Shown: positions 2,337 through 10,852 of the stretch, piece by piece | Position numbering within the stretch: the stretch's first letter is position 1 | Layout of the letters: each line of letters starts with the position of its first letter | From: Octopus sinensis | Lineage: Eukaryota | DNA: 12,024 nucleotides | Assembly (NCBI RefSeq): GCF_006345805.1 | Contig: NW_021826737.1 | Location: forward strand, 1-12,024 | Reading direction: 5' to 3' | Position numbers and translations under genes: made by a program | The notes under the pieces: generated by a model | Databases searched by the model: none | Told to the model about the DNA's origin: nothing | What the model saw: the letters and a program-made list of their open reading frames with translations, nothing else

Positions 2337-2677
2337 CAATCTGGCCAGCCCCAATGAAAGACTAAGTTAAATGCAGTAGATTCCTTGGAAGAAAGTAGCG
2401 AATATATAGGAAAACAAAGGCGGAAATAAAAAACGGAAACTGTAACACAAATACAAATAACAGGTCATAACAACAAGTGTCTTTCGACTTAGGACGAATT
2501 ACATTAAGCTGGCGTGAGAGAAATGGTATACAAATACAAATAACAGGACTGACATGTTATTTGTATTTGTGTACCATTTTTCCTTTTTTTTCGTCTTTGT
2601 TTTCGTATATATTCGCTGCTTTCTTCCAAGGAATCTAATGCTCTTAGTTTAATTTTTCCTTGGGGCTGGCCAGATTG
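2337..2677. repeat. Inverted pair of ~125 bp repeat arms with a nested near-perfect hairpin; probably two opposed copies of a dispersed repeat (right copy may extend to ~2830)
   Basis: 2337-2462 (caatctggccagccccaa...ttccttggaagaaagtagcgaatatata...cacaaatacaaataaca) is the diverged reverse complement of 2555-2677. 2521-2545 pairs with 2555-2579 at 24/25 around a 9-nt loop. Confidence 0.85.
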
Positions 2678-2875: not shown

Positions 2876-3085
2876 ACTCTTTTACTCTTTTATTTGTTTC
2901 ATTCATTTGACTGCGGCCATGCTGGAGCACCGCCTTTAGTCGAGCAAATCGACCCCAGGACTTATTCTTTGTAAGCCTAGTACTTATTATATCGGTCTCT
3001 TTTGCCGAACCGCTAGGTTACGGAGACGTAAATACACCAGCATCGGTTGTCAAGCGATGTTGGGGGGGGACAAACACAGACACAA

Positions 3086-3163
<78 letters not shown>

Positions 3164-3278
3164 GACGGGCTTCTTTCAGTTTCCCTCTACCAAATCCACT
3201 CACAAGGCTTTGGTCGGCCCGAGGCTATAGTAGAAGATACTTGCCTGACACCGCCCAATGGGATTGGACACAGAACCA
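2876..3278 (-). mobile_element. tRNA-derived SINE family A, copy 1 (head degraded)
   Basis: Reverse complement aligns to the complete copy at 10437-10852, including the (AAAAGAGT)n tail at ~2876-2895 and an internal (CA)n(TA)n at ~3090-3162. Similarity decays after ~3245. Confidence 0.92.
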
Positions 3279-3926: not shown

Positions 3927-4017
3927 TATATTTAAGAAAATTGAATGTTACTGCCGGTCAAAAGGTGACTGTTGGTTTCGTACCTATAAAGCGCTTAACT
4001 GCATAGGCGACCCGGCT

Positions 4018-4063
4018 ATCTTTACATTCTGAGTTCAAATTCCACCGAGGTCAACATTTCCTT
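4018..4063 (+). mobile_element. SINE family B fragment (B-box region)
   Basis: tctttacattctgagttcaaattccaccgaggtcaac matches the family B B-box segment. Confidence 0.7.
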
Positions 4064-4065
4064 TA

Positions 4066-4242
4066 AGACGATGAGCAGTCAGAATCGTTAGCACACCAGG
4101 CAAAATGCTTGGCGGCATTTCGTCCGTCTTGTTGTTCTGAGTTCAAATTCCCCCAGGGTCGACTTTGCCTTTCATCCTTCGGGGTCAATAGATTAAGTAC
4201 CATTGTGTGCTGGGGGTTGATGTACCAAAATTTGACACTAAT
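4066..4242 (+). mobile_element. tRNA-derived SINE family B copy
   Basis: Head gatgagcagtcagaatcgttagcacacc, B box gagttcaaattcc, central gcctttcatccttcggggtcaatagattaagtacc, shortened ccaaaatttga-type tail. Confidence 0.88.
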
Positions 4243-4400
4243 ATTGAATGCAATCATGAAATACCGCAAAAATTCCTCAGATTAGTACGTTTTTCTCGAG
4301 CCCTGGTTCTTATAAGAGCAGGTTACCTATTTTCCAATGTATATTAGTTACCGAGATCACAACCTTATCCTTCAACGAGATGCCGGTCTGTGGCAGAATT

Positions 4401-4790
4401 CAAGGCCAGCAATTTTGAAGGGAGGGGCAAGTCAATTACATCGTCCCATGGGATGAAAGGCAAAGTTGCCCACGGTGGAATTTGAACTCATATCGTAAAG
4501 ACCATTTCGTAAAGAAATGGTTCCAAGCATCTTCAGCGAAGCGCCACCGATTTTACCAGCTCGTCACATTAACATTGGTTTCAAATTCTGACGCCAAGCC
4601 AGCAATTTGAAGTGAAGTTAATCGATTACATCGATCTCGGTCCTTGACTGAAACTTTATTTTCATCAACTCTGATGGATTTAAAGGCAAATTTTACCTGG
4701 GCGGAATTTGAACTCATACCGTAAAGAATCAGAAGAAATACCACTGAGAATTTTGTCCGACGTGCAAACAGTTCTACCAACTCACCACCT
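4401..4790 (-). mobile_element. Two older SINE family B copies in head-to-tail tandem (~4401-4569, ~4574-4790) with the AAATTGCTGGC-type tail
   Basis: Each has ggaatttgaactca (B box, reverse complement), ends at a ccagctcg/ccaactcaccacct head, and starts with a gccagcaattt tail. Confidence 0.85.
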
Positions 4791-5208
4791 ATTTCTTTAT
4801 TGCACACAAGGGGCTAAACATAGAGGGGACAAACAAGGACAGACAAACGGATTATATCGACCCCAGTACGTAACTGGTACTTATTTAATCGACCCCGAAA
4901 GGATGAAAGGCAAAAATCGACCTCGGCGGAATTTGAACTCAGAACGTAGCGGCAGACGAAATACCTATTTCTATTTCTTTACTACCACCCACAAGGGGCT
5001 AAACACAGAGAGGACAAACAAGGACAGAGAAACGGATTAAGTCGATTACATCAATCCCAGTGCGTAACTGATACTTATTTATTCGACCCCGAAAGGATGA
5101 AAGTCAAAGTCGACCTCGGCGGAATTTGAACTCAGTACATAACGGCAGACGAAATACGGCTACGCATTTCGCCCGGCGTGCTAACGTTTCTGCCAGCTCG
5201 CCACCTTA
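4791..5208 (-). mobile_element. Young dimeric SINE family B unit (full copy ~4966-5208 plus 5'-truncated copy ~4791-4965) with Tx1-like-derived tail
   Basis: Two highly similar direct units. Minus-strand head ggtggcgagctggcagaaacgttagc (A-box-like), B box gagttcaaattcc, tail ...tgtttagccccttgtg...taaagaaata. Confidence 0.92.
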
Positions 5209-5320
5209 ATAACAATATAGGGCCACACATACTTGATGGTGATAAGAAGGAAGTATAACCGATTAAATTGTACCTCTTGAAAGCGAAATCAAAACTGGAA
5301 AAATCGGTTCGTTGATTTTG

Positions 5321-5600
5321 TGTGTCTCAGTAGCTGGCAAGTTGCTTGACTATCTTTCAACTGCGGCATTAGAATAACGGTGACTTCCACCCGAGTCATA
5401 ATTTGGTGTCAGTCCAACTAGAACTTACATTTAACCATTGTCTACTTTTCTGTTTATAAAGAGAAACTCATAAAATTTGATTTGCATATCGATTTCATCA
5501 AGGCCTTTGATAAGGCTTATTGTGAAATAGTGTAGAAGCCATTTGAACGTTATGGACATATACGCAAACTAATATCATTATCACAAACACTTCACAGTAT
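5321..5600 (+). pseudogene. Degenerate non-LTR reverse transcriptase fragment (RTE-like)
   Basis: Manual translation gives VSVAGKLL...LPPES*FG...; after a frameshift IDFIKAFD (DFIKAFD at 5491-5511)...V*KPFERYG..KLI.L.QTLH. This follows the RT motif order LLSxxGK / LPESQxGFR / FxDFxKAFD / LWxxLxxYG; several stops. Confidence 0.7.
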
Positions 5601-5606
5601 AATGAT

Positions 5607-5684
5607 ATCTATCTATTTATCGATCTATCTATCTACCAATCTACATATCATTCTGTCTATGTATTAAACTATCTGTCTATAAAC

Positions 5685-5766
<82 letters not shown>

Positions 5767-5957
5767 GTGTGTGTATATATATATGGTCAGGCACATATAT
5801 GTATATATTGTGTGTGTATGTGTGTGCGTCTACATACTTATATAAACGCACGTATCGTGTATGCATAGCGTCTCAAAATAGACGCTCCATCTCATTCTTT
5901 TTGTATGTGTGTGTATATATATATGTTTGTGTTTATGTGTATACATATACTTATGTG

Positions 5958-6020
<63 letters not shown>

Positions 6021-6196
6021 TTTATGTATTAATTCTATTTATATGGACAGGCATATGTCTGTGCGTGTGTGTATGTGTGTTTTGCGCATGTATGAAGACG
6101 CGCGTCCGATTGGTTTGCACGTTCTTTTTAAGAACACATTCTTGTCTGCACCTGCATATATACATACGCACATACATACATACAGACAGACAGACA

Positions 6197-6271
<75 letters not shown>
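5607..6271. repeat. Compound microsatellite tract: (ATCT)n, (AT)n, (ATGT)n, (AGAC)n, (AGAT)n
   Basis: (AT)n ~5691-5743 and ~5958-6017; (AGAT)n ~6197-6271. Confidence 0.92.
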
Positions 6272-6272
<1 letters not shown>

Positions 6273-6351
6273 CTTTCTTTATTGGATACACAGGGCTAAA
6301 CACAGTGGGGACAATTACAATGTAGAGTTTTTCTTTTCTGAAAGACGGGAA

Positions 6352-7095
6352 AGACGCGTTCAGTTTCCAGTAAATGAGGCCCTGCCTATATGCTTTATCT
6401 AAATCTAGCGTACACGTCACAAGTTTGTGATCCGTGTAGCTGACTATGTGGAATTGTGGACATCCGAAGCTATCCCTATCAACTGTCCTACACAGTATCC
6501 TATCTAGATACGATCTCGACGACCCAATGCGGTTGGTCCATGTCCACGTTGGCGCTTTTGGATGATCGAGTCAGTACCTGGCAGACAGTTGAGAGCGTTC
6601 GAACAGGTCTCGAAGGCATTTCCATCCCCGTCTATTTCTGTCTCTTCCCACGTAGTCTAGATGCGTGTCCAAGGTAGCATTCCAATCCCCCACTAAAAGT
6701 AAAGGACGAGACGTTCCCAAGAATACTTCTAGATGTCGAAAGATAACCGGCCAACCTGTTAAAGGCGGTGCATAGACTGCTAGGAGTCGAAAAGCGCACC
6801 CATCGCTGCCGTCGACAGCCAGTCTACCCTCCGGGTCTACGAATATCGTCTTTACTTCGAGATCCAGACTCTTGCGAAAAATTACTGCCGTGCCACTACC
6901 GCCCATCTTCGGCAGACAGGACGAAAAATAAACGTTAACCTGTCCGCCAAACATGGATTTTAGGGCCCGTGGCTCATGGAGTATGGTCTACTTATGGCTA
7001 TGATTCCCAAATCGTGTGACTTTGTCATTTAATAAGTACCCTTGTTTCCAAGGGGACTCCAAGCCACGCGCATTCGCACAACTAATCTTGACCAT
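6352..7095 (-). pseudogene. ORF2 apurinic/apyrimidinic-like (APE) endonuclease domain of the retrotransposon, disrupted and truncated
   Basis: From ATG at 7095: MVKISCANARGL, then (frameshifted) IIAIS.T, GTAVIFRKSL, FVDPEGR, AVYAPP, LLLVGDWNATLD, a TGA at 6573-6571 (probable CGA>TGA), then PTWTW...SRSYLDRI...YTDHKLV...YWKLNAS. These are the canonical L1/Tx1 EN motifs in order. Confidence 0.92.
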
Positions 7096-7210
7096 GATCC
7101 TATTGAGTTGTGTGCTTTAAAACACAAACAAGAGGAACAGAGAATTACTTACCGTTCGAAAGTTTTGTTTCCCACTTTGATTTTTCATCAAGGAGGCTAC
7201 TGTAAAGTTT

Positions 7211-8205
7211 TTATGCTAAGTATTTATGACATCCCCCTACCGCATTGAGGCAGAGAGATTTTAGTGTGTGGTGCAATTTTGGTGTGATATGGTAAATTTT
7301 GATGTGTTCTGGTGGTGTTGTGTATGGGTGGTTGCTCGTTTTAATGTTTTGCTGTTCAAGGACACCAATTTCTAAAATATTAGCTTCCTCCATTTCGAAG
7401 CAGATGGTAGATAACAACCATTGCGTCTCTATCTCTGGAGGCACATTCTTTATTCTTACCTTCGTCACTCTTTGCCCAAGATAGCTGGGTATCATTATCA
7501 GCTGGTTTCTACGAAGAGTGAGTGGTGAAAATTGCTTTGCTAATTTTTCGCTGTGGAAATGAATTTGAACAGTGGCAAATTTATGCCACTAATTGATGTA
7601 TTCCTTATGTGGCCATACAGGGCGAAGGCATTTTGAATTTTTTCCTGTGCTGCGTTTTCGGGGTTTTTTTTCTGTACTCAATATTTTGTAGATGATGGCT
7701 TTTTTTGCGTGTGTTTGTTCTATGTTCTGAAGGATGTATAAATGTAAATTTTCGTCTTCTTTCTTAAGAAGTGTTTTTGTTTCTTTGATCTGTTGTGCAG
7801 TGAAAGATACGATTGTTCTCTTTTGTTTAATTGCTTCGGCGAAATTTGTTTTGGTGGTGGTGATTGTGTCGGTGGCAGAGGTGTCATTTGTAGCAGTTGA
7901 GGTTGTAGTAGTGACGGCATAGCGACGATATCATTGTTGTTGTTGTTGTTGGTGTTATTGGTGGCGGTAGCAGTGGTAGTCATGGTGGTGGTAGTGGTGG
8001 TGACAGGGCTGTAAACGATCGTAGTTGCAGAGTTCACTTCCACGTCACTCAGGTTTGCCTTTGATTTCTTATCATTTTTCATGTTTGTAGTTGTATGTGT
8101 GCGCGTGCAGGAGTTATTCTTTTTTTCTCCTAGCGTTTCAAGGCTAGGGAAATGCTGGTCCATGAAGGAATTTGACCAACGTTCTATGATGACATTTCTC
8201 GACAT
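7211..8205 (-). pseudogene. ORF1 (RRM-like, Tx1-type) remnant of the retrotransposon, frameshifted
   Basis: Lies directly upstream of the EN domain. Thr/Asn-rich N-terminus (ORF 7720-8205); across frameshifts KFATVQIHFHSEKLAKQF...MIPSYLGQRVTKVRIKNVPPEI resembles the Tx1 ORF1 RRM region. No CCHC knuckle found. Confidence 0.65.
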
Positions 8206-8394
8206 TTTTTAAAGTCAAGAAGAAAATATACAAATTTAATTAAGGTTGAAACTTTCCCTTGGAAAGACACTCAAACGAAATTTGGGTACTTCACACTCCT
8301 TATGGGCAAAAATGTAAACAAAATGTGGGCTATAAATGGTAAAAAAAAAATGATTACTTTCGGAGCCGATGCGACAACACGTCAGTCGATACAC

Positions 8395-9296: not shown

Positions 9297-9740
9297 CTTA
9301 GCGACATTTTGTCTGTCTTTACGTTCTGAGTTCAAATTCCGGCGAGGTCGTATTTACGTTATGAGTCCAAATTTCGGCGAGGTCGTTTTTGCATTTCATC
9401 CTTTCGGAGGCGATGAAATAAATAAGTACTAGTTGAACACTGGGGGTCGATGTAATCGATTTTCTGTCTCTCCCCTCCACCCCAAATTGCTGGCCTTGCA
9501 CCGAAAGTTGTAACAAGTATTACCGTCTAAGGTGGTGAGCTGGCGGAATTGTAACCGCGCCGGGCAAAATGCTTAACAGCGTTTCGCCCGTCTTTTCGCT
9601 CTGCGTTCAAATTCCGCTGAGGACGACTTTGCTTTGCGTCCTCTGTGTCAATGACATTTGTACCAGCTAAACACTGAGGTTGATGTATCCGACTTAAACG
9701 CTTCCTCAAGATTGCTGGCCTTGAGCCAAAATTCGATATC
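9297..9740 (+). mobile_element. Two SINE family B copies head-to-tail (~9297-9515, 5'-truncated with duplicated B box; ~9531-9740)
   Basis: gagttcaaattcc B boxes, tttcatcctttcgg...aataagtactag...ctgggggtcgatgtaatcga core, attgctggccttg tails, second head ggtggtgagctggcggaattg. Confidence 0.88.
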
Positions 9741-9899: not shown

Positions 9900-10204
9900 T
9901 GTATGTATGTATGTATGCATGTATTTATGTATCGCTTGGTTACGGTGACGTATGTAAAACAACACTGGTTGTTAAGCGGTGGATGGCGGGCAAGCACAAA
10001 TACAAAGACACACACGCATAGATAAGTACATACATATATACAACGGGCTTCTTTCAGTTTGCCTCTACCAAATTCACTCACTAGGCTTTGGTTTACCGAG
10101 GTCAATAGTAGAAGACAATTACCCAAGGTACCACGCATTAGGAGTGAACCTGGAACCATGTAGCTAGGAAGCAAACCTCTTACCACGCAGCCAAGTCTGC
10201 GCCT
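9770..10204 (-). mobile_element. SINE family A, copy 3 (older, split by an (AT)n/(ATGT)n tract at ~9846-9930)
   Basis: Tail-side ggccatgctggggcaccacc at ~9777-9796; body cgggcttctttcagttt...; head ending cttaccacgcagccaagtctgcgcc at ~10203. Confidence 0.85.
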
Positions 10205-10436
10205 ATATATGCATACATACAGTGTAACTCACGCGCACAACACACACACACACATACCTAGTATATTTTTGTAAGTGACAATGAACGAAGCGTTTCAGCC
10301 CTTGAGCCAATTAATATAAAATGATACATACTCATTTTTGAGTTCTATTTATCTGTTTCCATCACCAAATCTATGTACATGCATATATAATGTATAGATA
10401 GATAGATAAATACATAGAGACGCAGGAGTGGCTACA

Positions 10437-10852
10437 GGCGTAGGAGTGGCTGTGTGGTAAGTAGCTTGTTTACCAACCACATGGTCCCGGGTTCAGTCCC
10501 ACTGCGTGGCACCTTGAGCAAGTGTCTTCTACTATAGCCCCGGGCCGACCAAAGCCTTGTGAGTGGATTTGGTAGACGGAAACTGAAAGAAGCCCGTCGT
10601 ATATATGTATATATATGTATATATATATGCGTGTGTGTGTTTGTGTGTCTGTGTTTGTCCCCCGAGCATTGCTTGACAACCGATGCTGGTGTCTTTATGT
10701 CCCCGTCACTTAGCGGTTCGGCAAAAGAGACCGATAGAATAAGTACTGGGCTTACAAAAGAATAAGTCCCGGGGTCGAGTTGCTCGATTAAAGGCGGTGC
10801 TCCAGCATGGCCGCAGTCAGATGACTGAAACAAGTAAAAGAGTAAAAGAGTA
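10437..10852 (+). mobile_element. tRNA-derived SINE family A, copy 4 (complete)
   Basis: A box TGGCTGTGTGG 10447-10457, B box GGTTCAGTCC 10490-10499, CORE-like ccttgagcaagtgtctt, internal (TA)n(TG)n, tail (AGTAAAAG)n. Resembles described octopus tRNA-SINEs; the family name was not verified. Confidence 0.93.

What the first reader, a model, noticed from the sequence alone, without database searches (positions are those of the whole stretch)
4791..6320. SINE B tail matches the 3' end of the Tx1-like LINE: candidate LINE/SINE partner pair in one window
Seen: LINE 3' end on the plus strand, 6274-6314 tttctttattggatacacagggctaaacacagtggggacaa, versus SINE tails 4792-4832 tttctttattgcacacaaggggctaaacatagaggggacaa and ~4973-5018 tttctttactaccacccacaaggggctaaacacagagaggacaa. 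The terminal ~40 nt are shared, in the same orientation, and both end at AATAAAGAAA/GTAAAGAAA. Known: SINEs are mobilised by LINEs whose 3' ends they share, mostly documented for CR1/L2/RTE; L1-type elements usually recognise poly(A), so a sequence-specific Tx1/L1 tail on a tRNA-SINE is less usual. Inference: this Tx1-like family mobilises the young SINE B subfamily through stringent 3'-end recognition.
Basis: partly seen in the sequence, partly recalled or inferred. Interest (0 to 1): 0.8.

Follow-up and report, generated by a model that had tools for sequence, protein, structure and literature searches.

The report
Octopus SINE wearing a Tx1 tail
A very abundant short jumping element in this genome, likely an octopus's, ends in the same hairpin-shaped tail as a whole group of Tx1-like retrotransposons and likely borrows their copying enzyme, though probably from a sister family rather than from the broken, microsatellite-targeting copy lying next to it.

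Summary
The shared tail is real; all elements lie on the minus strand. The window's LINE is an internally deleted copy (ORF1 remnant, endonuclease, last ~67 nt). ORF2 is EN-RT-zf, closer to Xenopus Tx1 (340 bits) than human L1 (174).

The tail is not private to this family. About eight related families (55-67% protein identity) share a pyrimidine tract, a 4-5 bp hairpin with family-specific stems, and AATAAA. The window family inserts in (TATC)n (50 of 62 ends); SINE B never does (0 of 171) and has ~16-bp target duplications. Sister family F3 matches the SINE's last 28 nt and end register best; an ORF2-less family matches its upstream tail best. No autonomous family with the whole SINE tail was found.

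Verdict: a Tx1-derived SINE tail, about 200,000 units, likely mobilised by this clade, probably not by the window's family. Seven literature searches found no tail-sharing Tx1/SINE pair; Repbase and Dfam could not be searched.

The parts
4972..5207 (-). SINE B, first unit of a tandem pair: head with A-box-like and B-box-like motifs, central body, Tx1-type tail
   Evidence: sequence; copies with same layout. Box motifs are recalled; no Rfam tRNA match
4972..5032 (-). Tx1-type tail of the first SINE unit
   Evidence: alignment score 36 to LINE end
4790..4965 (-). SINE B, second unit (body plus tail, starting inside the head at GGTATTTC)
   Evidence: 67 of 171 units are followed by such a unit
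4790..4847 (-). Tx1-type tail of the second SINE unit (about 58 nt; last ~45 nt shared with the window LINE)
   Evidence: 39 of 47 identical, score 53 against shuffle maximum 31; tail-swap point at about 4850
4573..4790 (-). Older SINE with the same head and body but a different tail, into whose 5' end the SINE B pair is inserted (left end approximate)
   Evidence: sequence, repeat family D17, tail classes
6197..6271 (-). (TATC)n tract at the LINE 3' junction (target)
6272..6338 (-). 3' terminus of the Tx1-like LINE (TATC-targeting family, b-type tail); two substitutions break the hairpin in this copy
6337..7095 (-). ORF2 remnant: APE endonuclease, broken by a frameshift and a stop, cut off by a ~3 kb internal deletion at a 2-nt GA microhomology (6337-6338)
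   Evidence: PF03372 E=1.2e-5
7150..8205 (-). ORF1 remnant, broken (left end approximate)
   Evidence: related ORF1s carry zf-CCHC at E~0.003, below the Pfam cut-off
8206..8394 (-). 5' UTR of the LINE
   Evidence: 74% identical to 5' ends of related elements in L039
8395..8707 (-). (TATC)n-type tract at the LINE 5' junction

Best explanation
SINE B carries a ~58-nt 3' tail homologous to the conserved 3' ends of this genome's Tx1-like LINE clade and is likely copied by that clade's ORF2 protein, most likely of a family without a microsatellite target (F3-like, or an unsampled or extinct sister) rather than of the (TATC)n family in the window. Shown: the homology; the tail swap (same head and body occur with another tail); ~16-bp target duplications in both SINE and LINEs; the same end register (AATAAAGAAA plus two bases); different targets of SINE and window family. 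Inferred: Pol III transcribes the SINE from its internal boxes and reads a few bases past the tail; ORF2 binds the terminal hairpin plus AAUAAAGA; the endonuclease nicks; the RNA 3' end (AUAGGUA or AUAAGAA by subfamily) would pair with the nicked strand, favouring GGTA/TATA sites and SINE-into-SINE arrays. The window's LINE is a dead, internally deleted bystander.
For: 19 of 20 LINE copies end in the tail. Eight family groups with 55-67% protein identity keep the tail and form one clade (SH-aLRT 99 and 96, quick trees). Mean alignment score to 34 random SINE tails: F6 68.8, TATC-b 49.7, F3 48.5, F5 48.0, F7 39.8, window copy 39.5, F4 38.7, TATC-a 38.3, F8 30.5, FU 21.0, shuffled ~14; on the last 30 nt F3 is best (42.5 against 29.0 for TATC-b). 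Hairpin before AATAAA: 3.6 Watson-Crick pairs against 2.75 in shuffles (0 of 500 rounds reach it) and 1.24 in the adjacent window, 25 tails; covariation 0.494 against 0.258. Target duplications: 60 of 95 terminal SINE units have 8 bp or more, 51 have 12 or more, median 16; LINE families 14-19 bp. 32 of 50 body-bearing SINEs in random DNA have this tail, 14 another. F3, F5, F7 hold open ORF2s of 1126-1133 aa.
Against: No autonomous family with the whole SINE tail was found in two negated-pattern searches (197 and 189 matches, 100 listed each, 44 loci inspected each). No F3-type end followed by AGGTA, the SINE's commonest flank, among 82 matches; the 30 loci checked were 28 SINEs and 2 SINE-like pieces. 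RNAalifold finds no consensus structure on the unanchored alignment and single SINE or TATC tails fold no better than shuffles (z 0.0 to 1.4; F3 -1.8). The tails are related, so shuffle counts overstate significance. The target-duplication search had no shuffle control and includes (TA)n matches. The trees hold no L1 outgroup. No binding or mobilisation was tested.
Confidence: 0.66

Rival explanations
1. One reading: the (TATC)n-targeting family in the window is itself the SINE's partner.
For: TATC-b tails tie for the best whole-tail score among autonomous families (49.7); the TATC family is abundant (3389 first-look candidates) and has young copies (2.6% pairwise among top hits).
Against: 0 of 171 SINE ends against 50 of 62 LINE ends lie in TATC, although 18 such tracts occur in 400 kb of random DNA; its hairpin (GCC/GGC, 6-nt loop) differs from the SINE's (GCCC/GGGT, 5-nt loop, as in F3 and F7).
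Confidence: 0.12
2. The tail came from a Tx1-like element but is now a relic; another LINE (for example RTE, which is expanded in cephalopods) or relaxed recognition moves the SINE.
For: No autonomous family matches the full tail; SINE units far outnumber ends of these LINEs (27-35 SINE tails, 0 TATC-family tails and 1 F8 tail in 400 kb); RTE-BovB expansion in cephalopods (PMC10294476, passage). Long target duplications are not unique to Tx1 (recalled).
Against: The SINE ends at the same register as the LINEs, keeps the hairpin, and has no poly(A) or simple-repeat tail; same-bodied SINEs with another tail exist, which is what a change of partner predicts.
Confidence: 0.14
3. Several families of the clade share the work: different SINE B subfamilies are moved by different Tx1-like families because the tail is recognised across families.
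For: Tail variant and first flank bases are coupled (T variants 70 GGT: 2 AGA; C variants 11: 18); the SINE tail looks like a mosaic of F6/F4-type upstream and F3-type terminal sequence. Kojima 2015 infers several Tx1-Mar families for SINEU (PMC4494074, section 16).
Against: The coupling is explained as well by different read-through sequences of master copies; stems differ between families, which suggests family-specific binding. Overlaps with the best explanation.
Confidence: 0.06
4. Chance or convergence of AT/pyrimidine-rich ends around a polyadenylation signal.
For: AATAAA and T-rich tracts are common at 3' ends.
Against: Score 53 against shuffle maximum 31; 29-nt exact match to F4 and 28-nt exact match to F3 copies; F6 68.8 against 15.5 shuffled.
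Confidence: 0.02

Closest known systems
SINEU / Tx1-Mar of crocodilians (Kojima 2015, PMC4494074; passages and section 16 read)
   Same: A SINE inferred to be mobilised by Tx1-clade LINEs; several Tx1 families with different targets in one genome.
   Different: In the passages read the link rests on shared target, age and snRNA-derived heads; here it rests on a shared 3' tail, the head is tRNA-type in layout, and the target does not match the nearest LINE.
ZmSINE2/ZmSINE3 with LINE1-1_ZM, and SINEX-3_CR with L1-1_CR (Ohshima 2012, PMC3472496 part 1 of 3; Ohshima 2013, PMC3747384 passages and Table 1)
   Same: L1-superfamily LINE with a conserved ~45-nt 3' end, hairpin with compensatory changes, shared with a SINE.
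   Different: Those are plant and algal L1s with homopolymer tails; the review's table of pairs lists none with Tx1 and none in octopus. Here an animal Tx1-like clade, no poly(A).
Kibi (TC)n and Koshi (TTC)n Tx1 elements of fish (as described in PMC4494074, passage)
   Same: Tx1-type element inserted specifically into a microsatellite.
   Different: Target is (TATC)n; the octopod clade lies apart from the vertebrate Tx1 rows in the tree.
Octopus OK, OR1, OR2 SINEs (Ohshima and Okada 1994; not seen, known only from citations in PMC4758252 and PMC4824008)
   Same: Octopus tRNA-derived SINEs, OR1/OR2 filed as CORE-SINEs; SINE B may be one of them.
   Different: Could not be compared: sequences not available; no partner LINE is named for them in the passages read.
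UnaL2/UnaSINE and ZfL2 stringent recognition (PMC4176376, passages)
   Same: Model for how an ORF2 protein binds a terminal stem-loop shared by LINE and SINE.
   Different: L2 clade, shown by assay; here only inferred.

Membership tests
Tx1 clade (L1 superfamily) | ORF2 with APE endonuclease, RT and C-terminal zinc finger | tested here: met
   L042 ORF2: PF03372, PF00078, PF13966 all above cut-off
Tx1 clade (L1 superfamily) | ORF2 closer to Xenopus Tx1 than to L1 | tested here: met
   340 bits to YTX2_XENLA (P0273) against 174 to human L1 ORF2 and 75 to R2, phmmer in both
Tx1 clade (L1 superfamily) | RT nested among Tx1 elements in a rooted tree | tested here: inconclusive
   Quick trees without an L1 outgroup; octopod families form one clade, vertebrate Tx1 rows another
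Tx1 clade (L1 superfamily) | ORF1 with CCHC zinc knuckle (recalled feature) | tested here: inconclusive
   zf-CCHC E~0.003, 18 bits, below the 20.8 cut-off, in 2 of 3 ORF1 pieces
Tx1 clade (L1 superfamily) | Target-sequence preference | tested here: met
   50 of 62 3' ends and 14 of 15 5' sides at TATC-type tracts
Stringent SINE/LINE partner pair | Shared 3' terminal sequence | tested here: met
   met for the clade, no single family matches the whole tail
Stringent SINE/LINE partner pair | Conserved terminal stem-loop with compensatory changes | tested here: inconclusive
   met in anchored tests; no consensus fold; weak energies
Stringent SINE/LINE partner pair | Same insertion signature (window family against SINE B) | tested here: not met
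   TATC flank 50 of 62 against 0 of 171
Stringent SINE/LINE partner pair | Same insertion signature (F3 against SINE B) | tested here: inconclusive
   same end and duplication length, varied flanks, but no GGTA preference in F3
Stringent SINE/LINE partner pair | Overlapping ages | tested here: inconclusive
   SINE 10.9% pairwise (27 random copies); TATC top hits 2.6% (biased young), window copy 9-11% from them; F6 15.8%
Stringent SINE/LINE partner pair | Tail-dependent mobilisation in trans | not testable with these tools
   needs an assay
tRNA-derived SINE | tRNA-related head with A and B boxes | tested here: inconclusive
   box-like motifs by eye (recalled consensus); no ARAGORN or Rfam tRNA match
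tRNA-derived SINE | Short, non-coding, dispersed, with target duplications and 5' truncations | tested here: met
   232-nt copy in L050, 35 units in 400 kb, duplications in 60 of 95; 5'-truncated copies
Octopus OK/OR1/OR2 (CORE-SINE) | Sequence identity to published consensus | not testable with these tools
   sequences not held; SINEBase supplement unavailable

The most novel reading that the evidence does not exclude
An animal Tx1-like clade uses stringent, hairpin-based 3' recognition, with each family carrying its own stem while it evolves its own DNA target; a tRNA-type SINE captured this tail by tail swap and rode it to about 200,000 units, making a Tx1 enzyme the engine of a major part of the octopod SINE expansion, a pairing not found in the papers searched.
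Probability: 0.5. Interest if true: 0.72.

Novelty: new variant of a known kind. Interest (0 to 1): 0.55.

Why it matters
A 2012-2013 survey found only three SINEs with L1-clade tails among 58 pairs, all in plants or an alga, and proposed that stringent recognition was ancestral and later relaxed (PMC3472496, PMC3747384). A tail-sharing SINE on an animal Tx1-like clade would extend stringent recognition to the animal side of that superfamily. SINEs are a leading part of octopus repeats (PMC8967140, PMC13282606) and most recently active SINE families there are unclassified (893 of 900, PMC13282606), so naming the engine of a ~200,000-unit family is useful. The natural series of families with intact ORF2s, different stems and different targets makes RNA-tail and DNA-target specificity directly testable by swaps.

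Tried and rejected
Independent SINE-tail insertion at 6272-6340: rejected; the upstream AAAAGAAAAACTCTAC part is LINE-specific and full-length copies end so. (TATC)n as an element-encoded tail: rejected as the sole reading, since tracts also stand at 5' sides of full-length and truncated copies. A recurrent non-autonomous family with the window's deletion: not seen; only the window matched across the joint among 40 scored hits in each. A hybrid LINE-upstream/SINE-hairpin pattern: 0 matches. Autonomous LINE with the full SINE tail: not found. An ORF2 upstream of F6: none in 30 loci with 1.5 kb flanks nor in 5 ends with up to 6 kb (one 36% RT piece of another kind in L294). One search was mis-aimed (mostly flank) and served only to collect F3 ends. 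Expression: no RNA holder listed; contigs laid on the window did not show the deletion joint among the joints listed; neither is evidence. ESM Atlas gave only domain names. Cluster look-up gave no Tx1 name. The careful tree did not finish; quick trees used. The partner of the other-tailed SINE was looked for in held loci and not found. Earlier scan notes: none. Albertin 2015 not held.

Full report
Observation. The LINE end aligns to the SINE tail at 4792-4836 with 39 of 47 identical columns (score 53) and to the second tail with score 36; 200 shuffles gave mean 23.4 and maximum 31. The two SINE tails are consecutive units of one array, 5207 to 4790, set at the head of an older SINE with another tail. 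The organism is likely an octopod: the nearest named reverse transcriptase is from Argonauta hians, 68% identical, and the SINE style is one I recall from octopus; this is inference.

The LINE in the window. Read on the minus strand: (TATC)n-type tract, 5' UTR from about 8394, broken ORF1, ORF2 from 7095 with an endonuclease (PF03372) that has a frameshift and a stop, then a jump at a GA microhomology (6337-6338) to the last ~67 nt, then (TATC)n. The best genomic matches stop at the same point and run on into RT. The joint was seen only in the window among 40 scored hits in each of two searches, so this is likely a single deleted copy.

Of 20 endonuclease-matched copies fetched with flanks, 19 have a homologous tail downstream on the same strand, 18 at 2.9-3.1 kb and one at 1.0 kb; L035 has none. 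The closest matches to the window's tail (91-97%) are 3' ends of a b-type subfamily, many with ORF2 upstream. The tail is therefore the LINE's own end. ORF2 of L042 carries EN, RT and zf-RVT and scores 340 bits to Xenopus Tx1 ORF2 against 174 to human L1 ORF2. The trees lack an L1 outgroup, so 'Tx1-like' rests on score, layout and target specificity. The family targets a microsatellite: 50 of 62 distinct 3' ends have two or more TATC within 34 nt, and 14 of 15 copies checked have a TATC-type tract on the 5' side, four of them at truncation points.

The SINE. A full copy is 232 nt (L050). Forty 10-kb stretches taken at round coordinates of the large contigs hold 27 tails by a strict motif and 35 by BLAST, which scales to roughly 180,000-240,000 units; the same DNA held no TATC-family end and one end of family F8. 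Of 50 SINEs with the shared body motif, 32 have this tail, 14 a different one, 4 other; contigs from public runs also diverge at about 4850. The tail is thus a swapped module of about 58 nt. Neither ARAGORN nor Rfam recognised a tRNA in the head; the A and B boxes are by eye. Among 171 distinct units none is followed by TATC repeats, 67 are followed by another SINE body and 9 by a SINE head; 60 of 95 terminal units have a target duplication of 8 bp or more, 51 of 12 or more, median 16 (no shuffle control, some are (TA)n). Duplications start two bases after AAAGAAA, most often GGTA (14 of 51) or TATA (12 of 51). The tail variant predicts the flank (70:2 against 11:18), and in two copies (L091, L252) the 3' duplicate reads GGTA where the 5' one does not; I infer that these bases are templated by read-through RNA and help priming.

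The tail belongs to a clade. A zf-RVT search and follow-ups (50 of 150 zf hits inspected) found further families, 55-67% identical in protein, all ending in a pyrimidine tract, a short hairpin and AATAAA. They form one clade with the Argonauta protein (SH-aLRT 99 and 96 in quick trees). Stems differ by family (AGCC/GGCT, GCCC/GGGT, GGCC/GGCC, AACC/GGTT, ACCT/AGGT, GATT/AATC). Over 25 tails the anchored stem has 3.6 Watson-Crick pairs against 2.75 in shuffles and 1.24 just upstream; all 4 named pairs show two-sided changes, covariation 0.494 against 0.258. Against this, RNAalifold predicts nothing on the same alignment, single tails are not unusually stable except F3, and the tails are related. 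Their duplications are 14-19 bp.

Which family is the partner. Against 34 random SINE tails, the best whole-tail match is F6 (68.8), an old element with ORF1-like zinc-knuckle remnants and no ORF2 found; then TATC-b 49.7, F3 48.5, F5 48.0; the window copy scores 39.5. On the last 30 nt F3 leads (42.5), on the upstream part F6 (45.2) and F4 (32.8). F3 has the SINE's hairpin, its end and varied flanks, and an open 1128-aa ORF2. But no F3-type end was followed by AGGTA, and two negated-pattern searches found no autonomous element with the full tail (44 loci inspected each). Ages do not decide: SINE copies differ by 10.9% pairwise, TATC top hits by 2.6% (biased young), F6 by 15.8%. My odds: tail derived from this clade 0.93; moved by this clade 0.84; by the window's family 0.12.

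Comparison with print. Ohshima's survey found three SINEs with L1-clade tails among 58 pairs, in maize and Chlamydomonas, with a covarying hairpin in the monocot lineage (PMC3472496, first of three parts read; PMC3747384, passages and Table 1, which lists no Tx1 or octopus pair). Tx1-mobilised SINEs are known from crocodilian SINEU, argued from target, age and heads (PMC4494074, passages and section 16). Mollusc SINE papers name CR1 and L2 partners (PMC4758252, PMC4824008, passages) and tail exchange is established (PMC5786205, passages). Octopus repeat surveys list L1-Tx1 and abundant SINEs without pairing them in the passages read (PMC13282606, PMC8967140; also PMC10294476, PMC3531059, PMC4176376, passages). 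Seven searches turned up no tail-sharing Tx1/SINE pair. Repbase, Dfam, the 1994 octopus SINE paper, Albertin 2015 and the SINEBase supplement were not seen and may already hold the family or the link.

Verdict. Real and worth reporting: a Tx1-derived, likely structured tail on one of this genome's commonest SINEs. New variant of a known kind; interest 0.55.

Noticed in passing
L343:7159-7322 (G000:C15, near 29,053,160): A Tx1-like copy ends six bases before a full U1 snRNA sequence (Rfam 125 bits); one copy only, so U1 targeting is a lead.
   Followed up: partly
L291-L294, L355-L384: Family F6: ORF1-like zinc-knuckle remnants joined to a 3' UTR and the Tx1-type tail, no ORF2 found, ends mostly followed by CAGT; a likely non-autonomous Tx1 derivative with the best match to the SINE tail.
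   Followed up: partly
L033, L037, L039, L040, L042, L046: Different subfamilies of the TATC-targeting LINE stack head to tail in the same microsatellite; their 5' UTR/ORF1 differ while ORF2 is alike.
   Followed up: no
L337/L338, L341, L342, L181-L210, L231-L237: Sister families have their own recurring 3' flanks (F7, FU, FU2, F8, part of F4), suggesting a radiation of target specificities in one clade; several lie in ~5.3 kb tandem arrays (spacing).
   Followed up: partly
L086, L096, L097, L101, L103, L053: SINE B dimers and trimers bounded by a single target duplication, so arrays move or form as one unit.
   Followed up: partly
window 2876-3245 and 10433-10851 (also 9995-10207): Another SINE-like repeat in inverted copies, 81-94% alike, with an internal TA/CA microsatellite; different tail, not examined.
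   Followed up: no
window 2337-2430 and 2584-2677: 94-nt inverted arms, 86% complementary, 153 nt apart: likely a MITE or DNA transposon remnant.
   Followed up: no
window 4000-4260, 4380-4790, 9297-9740: Several older copies and fragments of the same-bodied SINE with the other tail; its partner LINE was not found.
   Followed up: partly
L131:1-1570 (minus): A reverse transcriptase of another LINE kind (24% to the Tx1-like ORF2); not classified.
   Followed up: no
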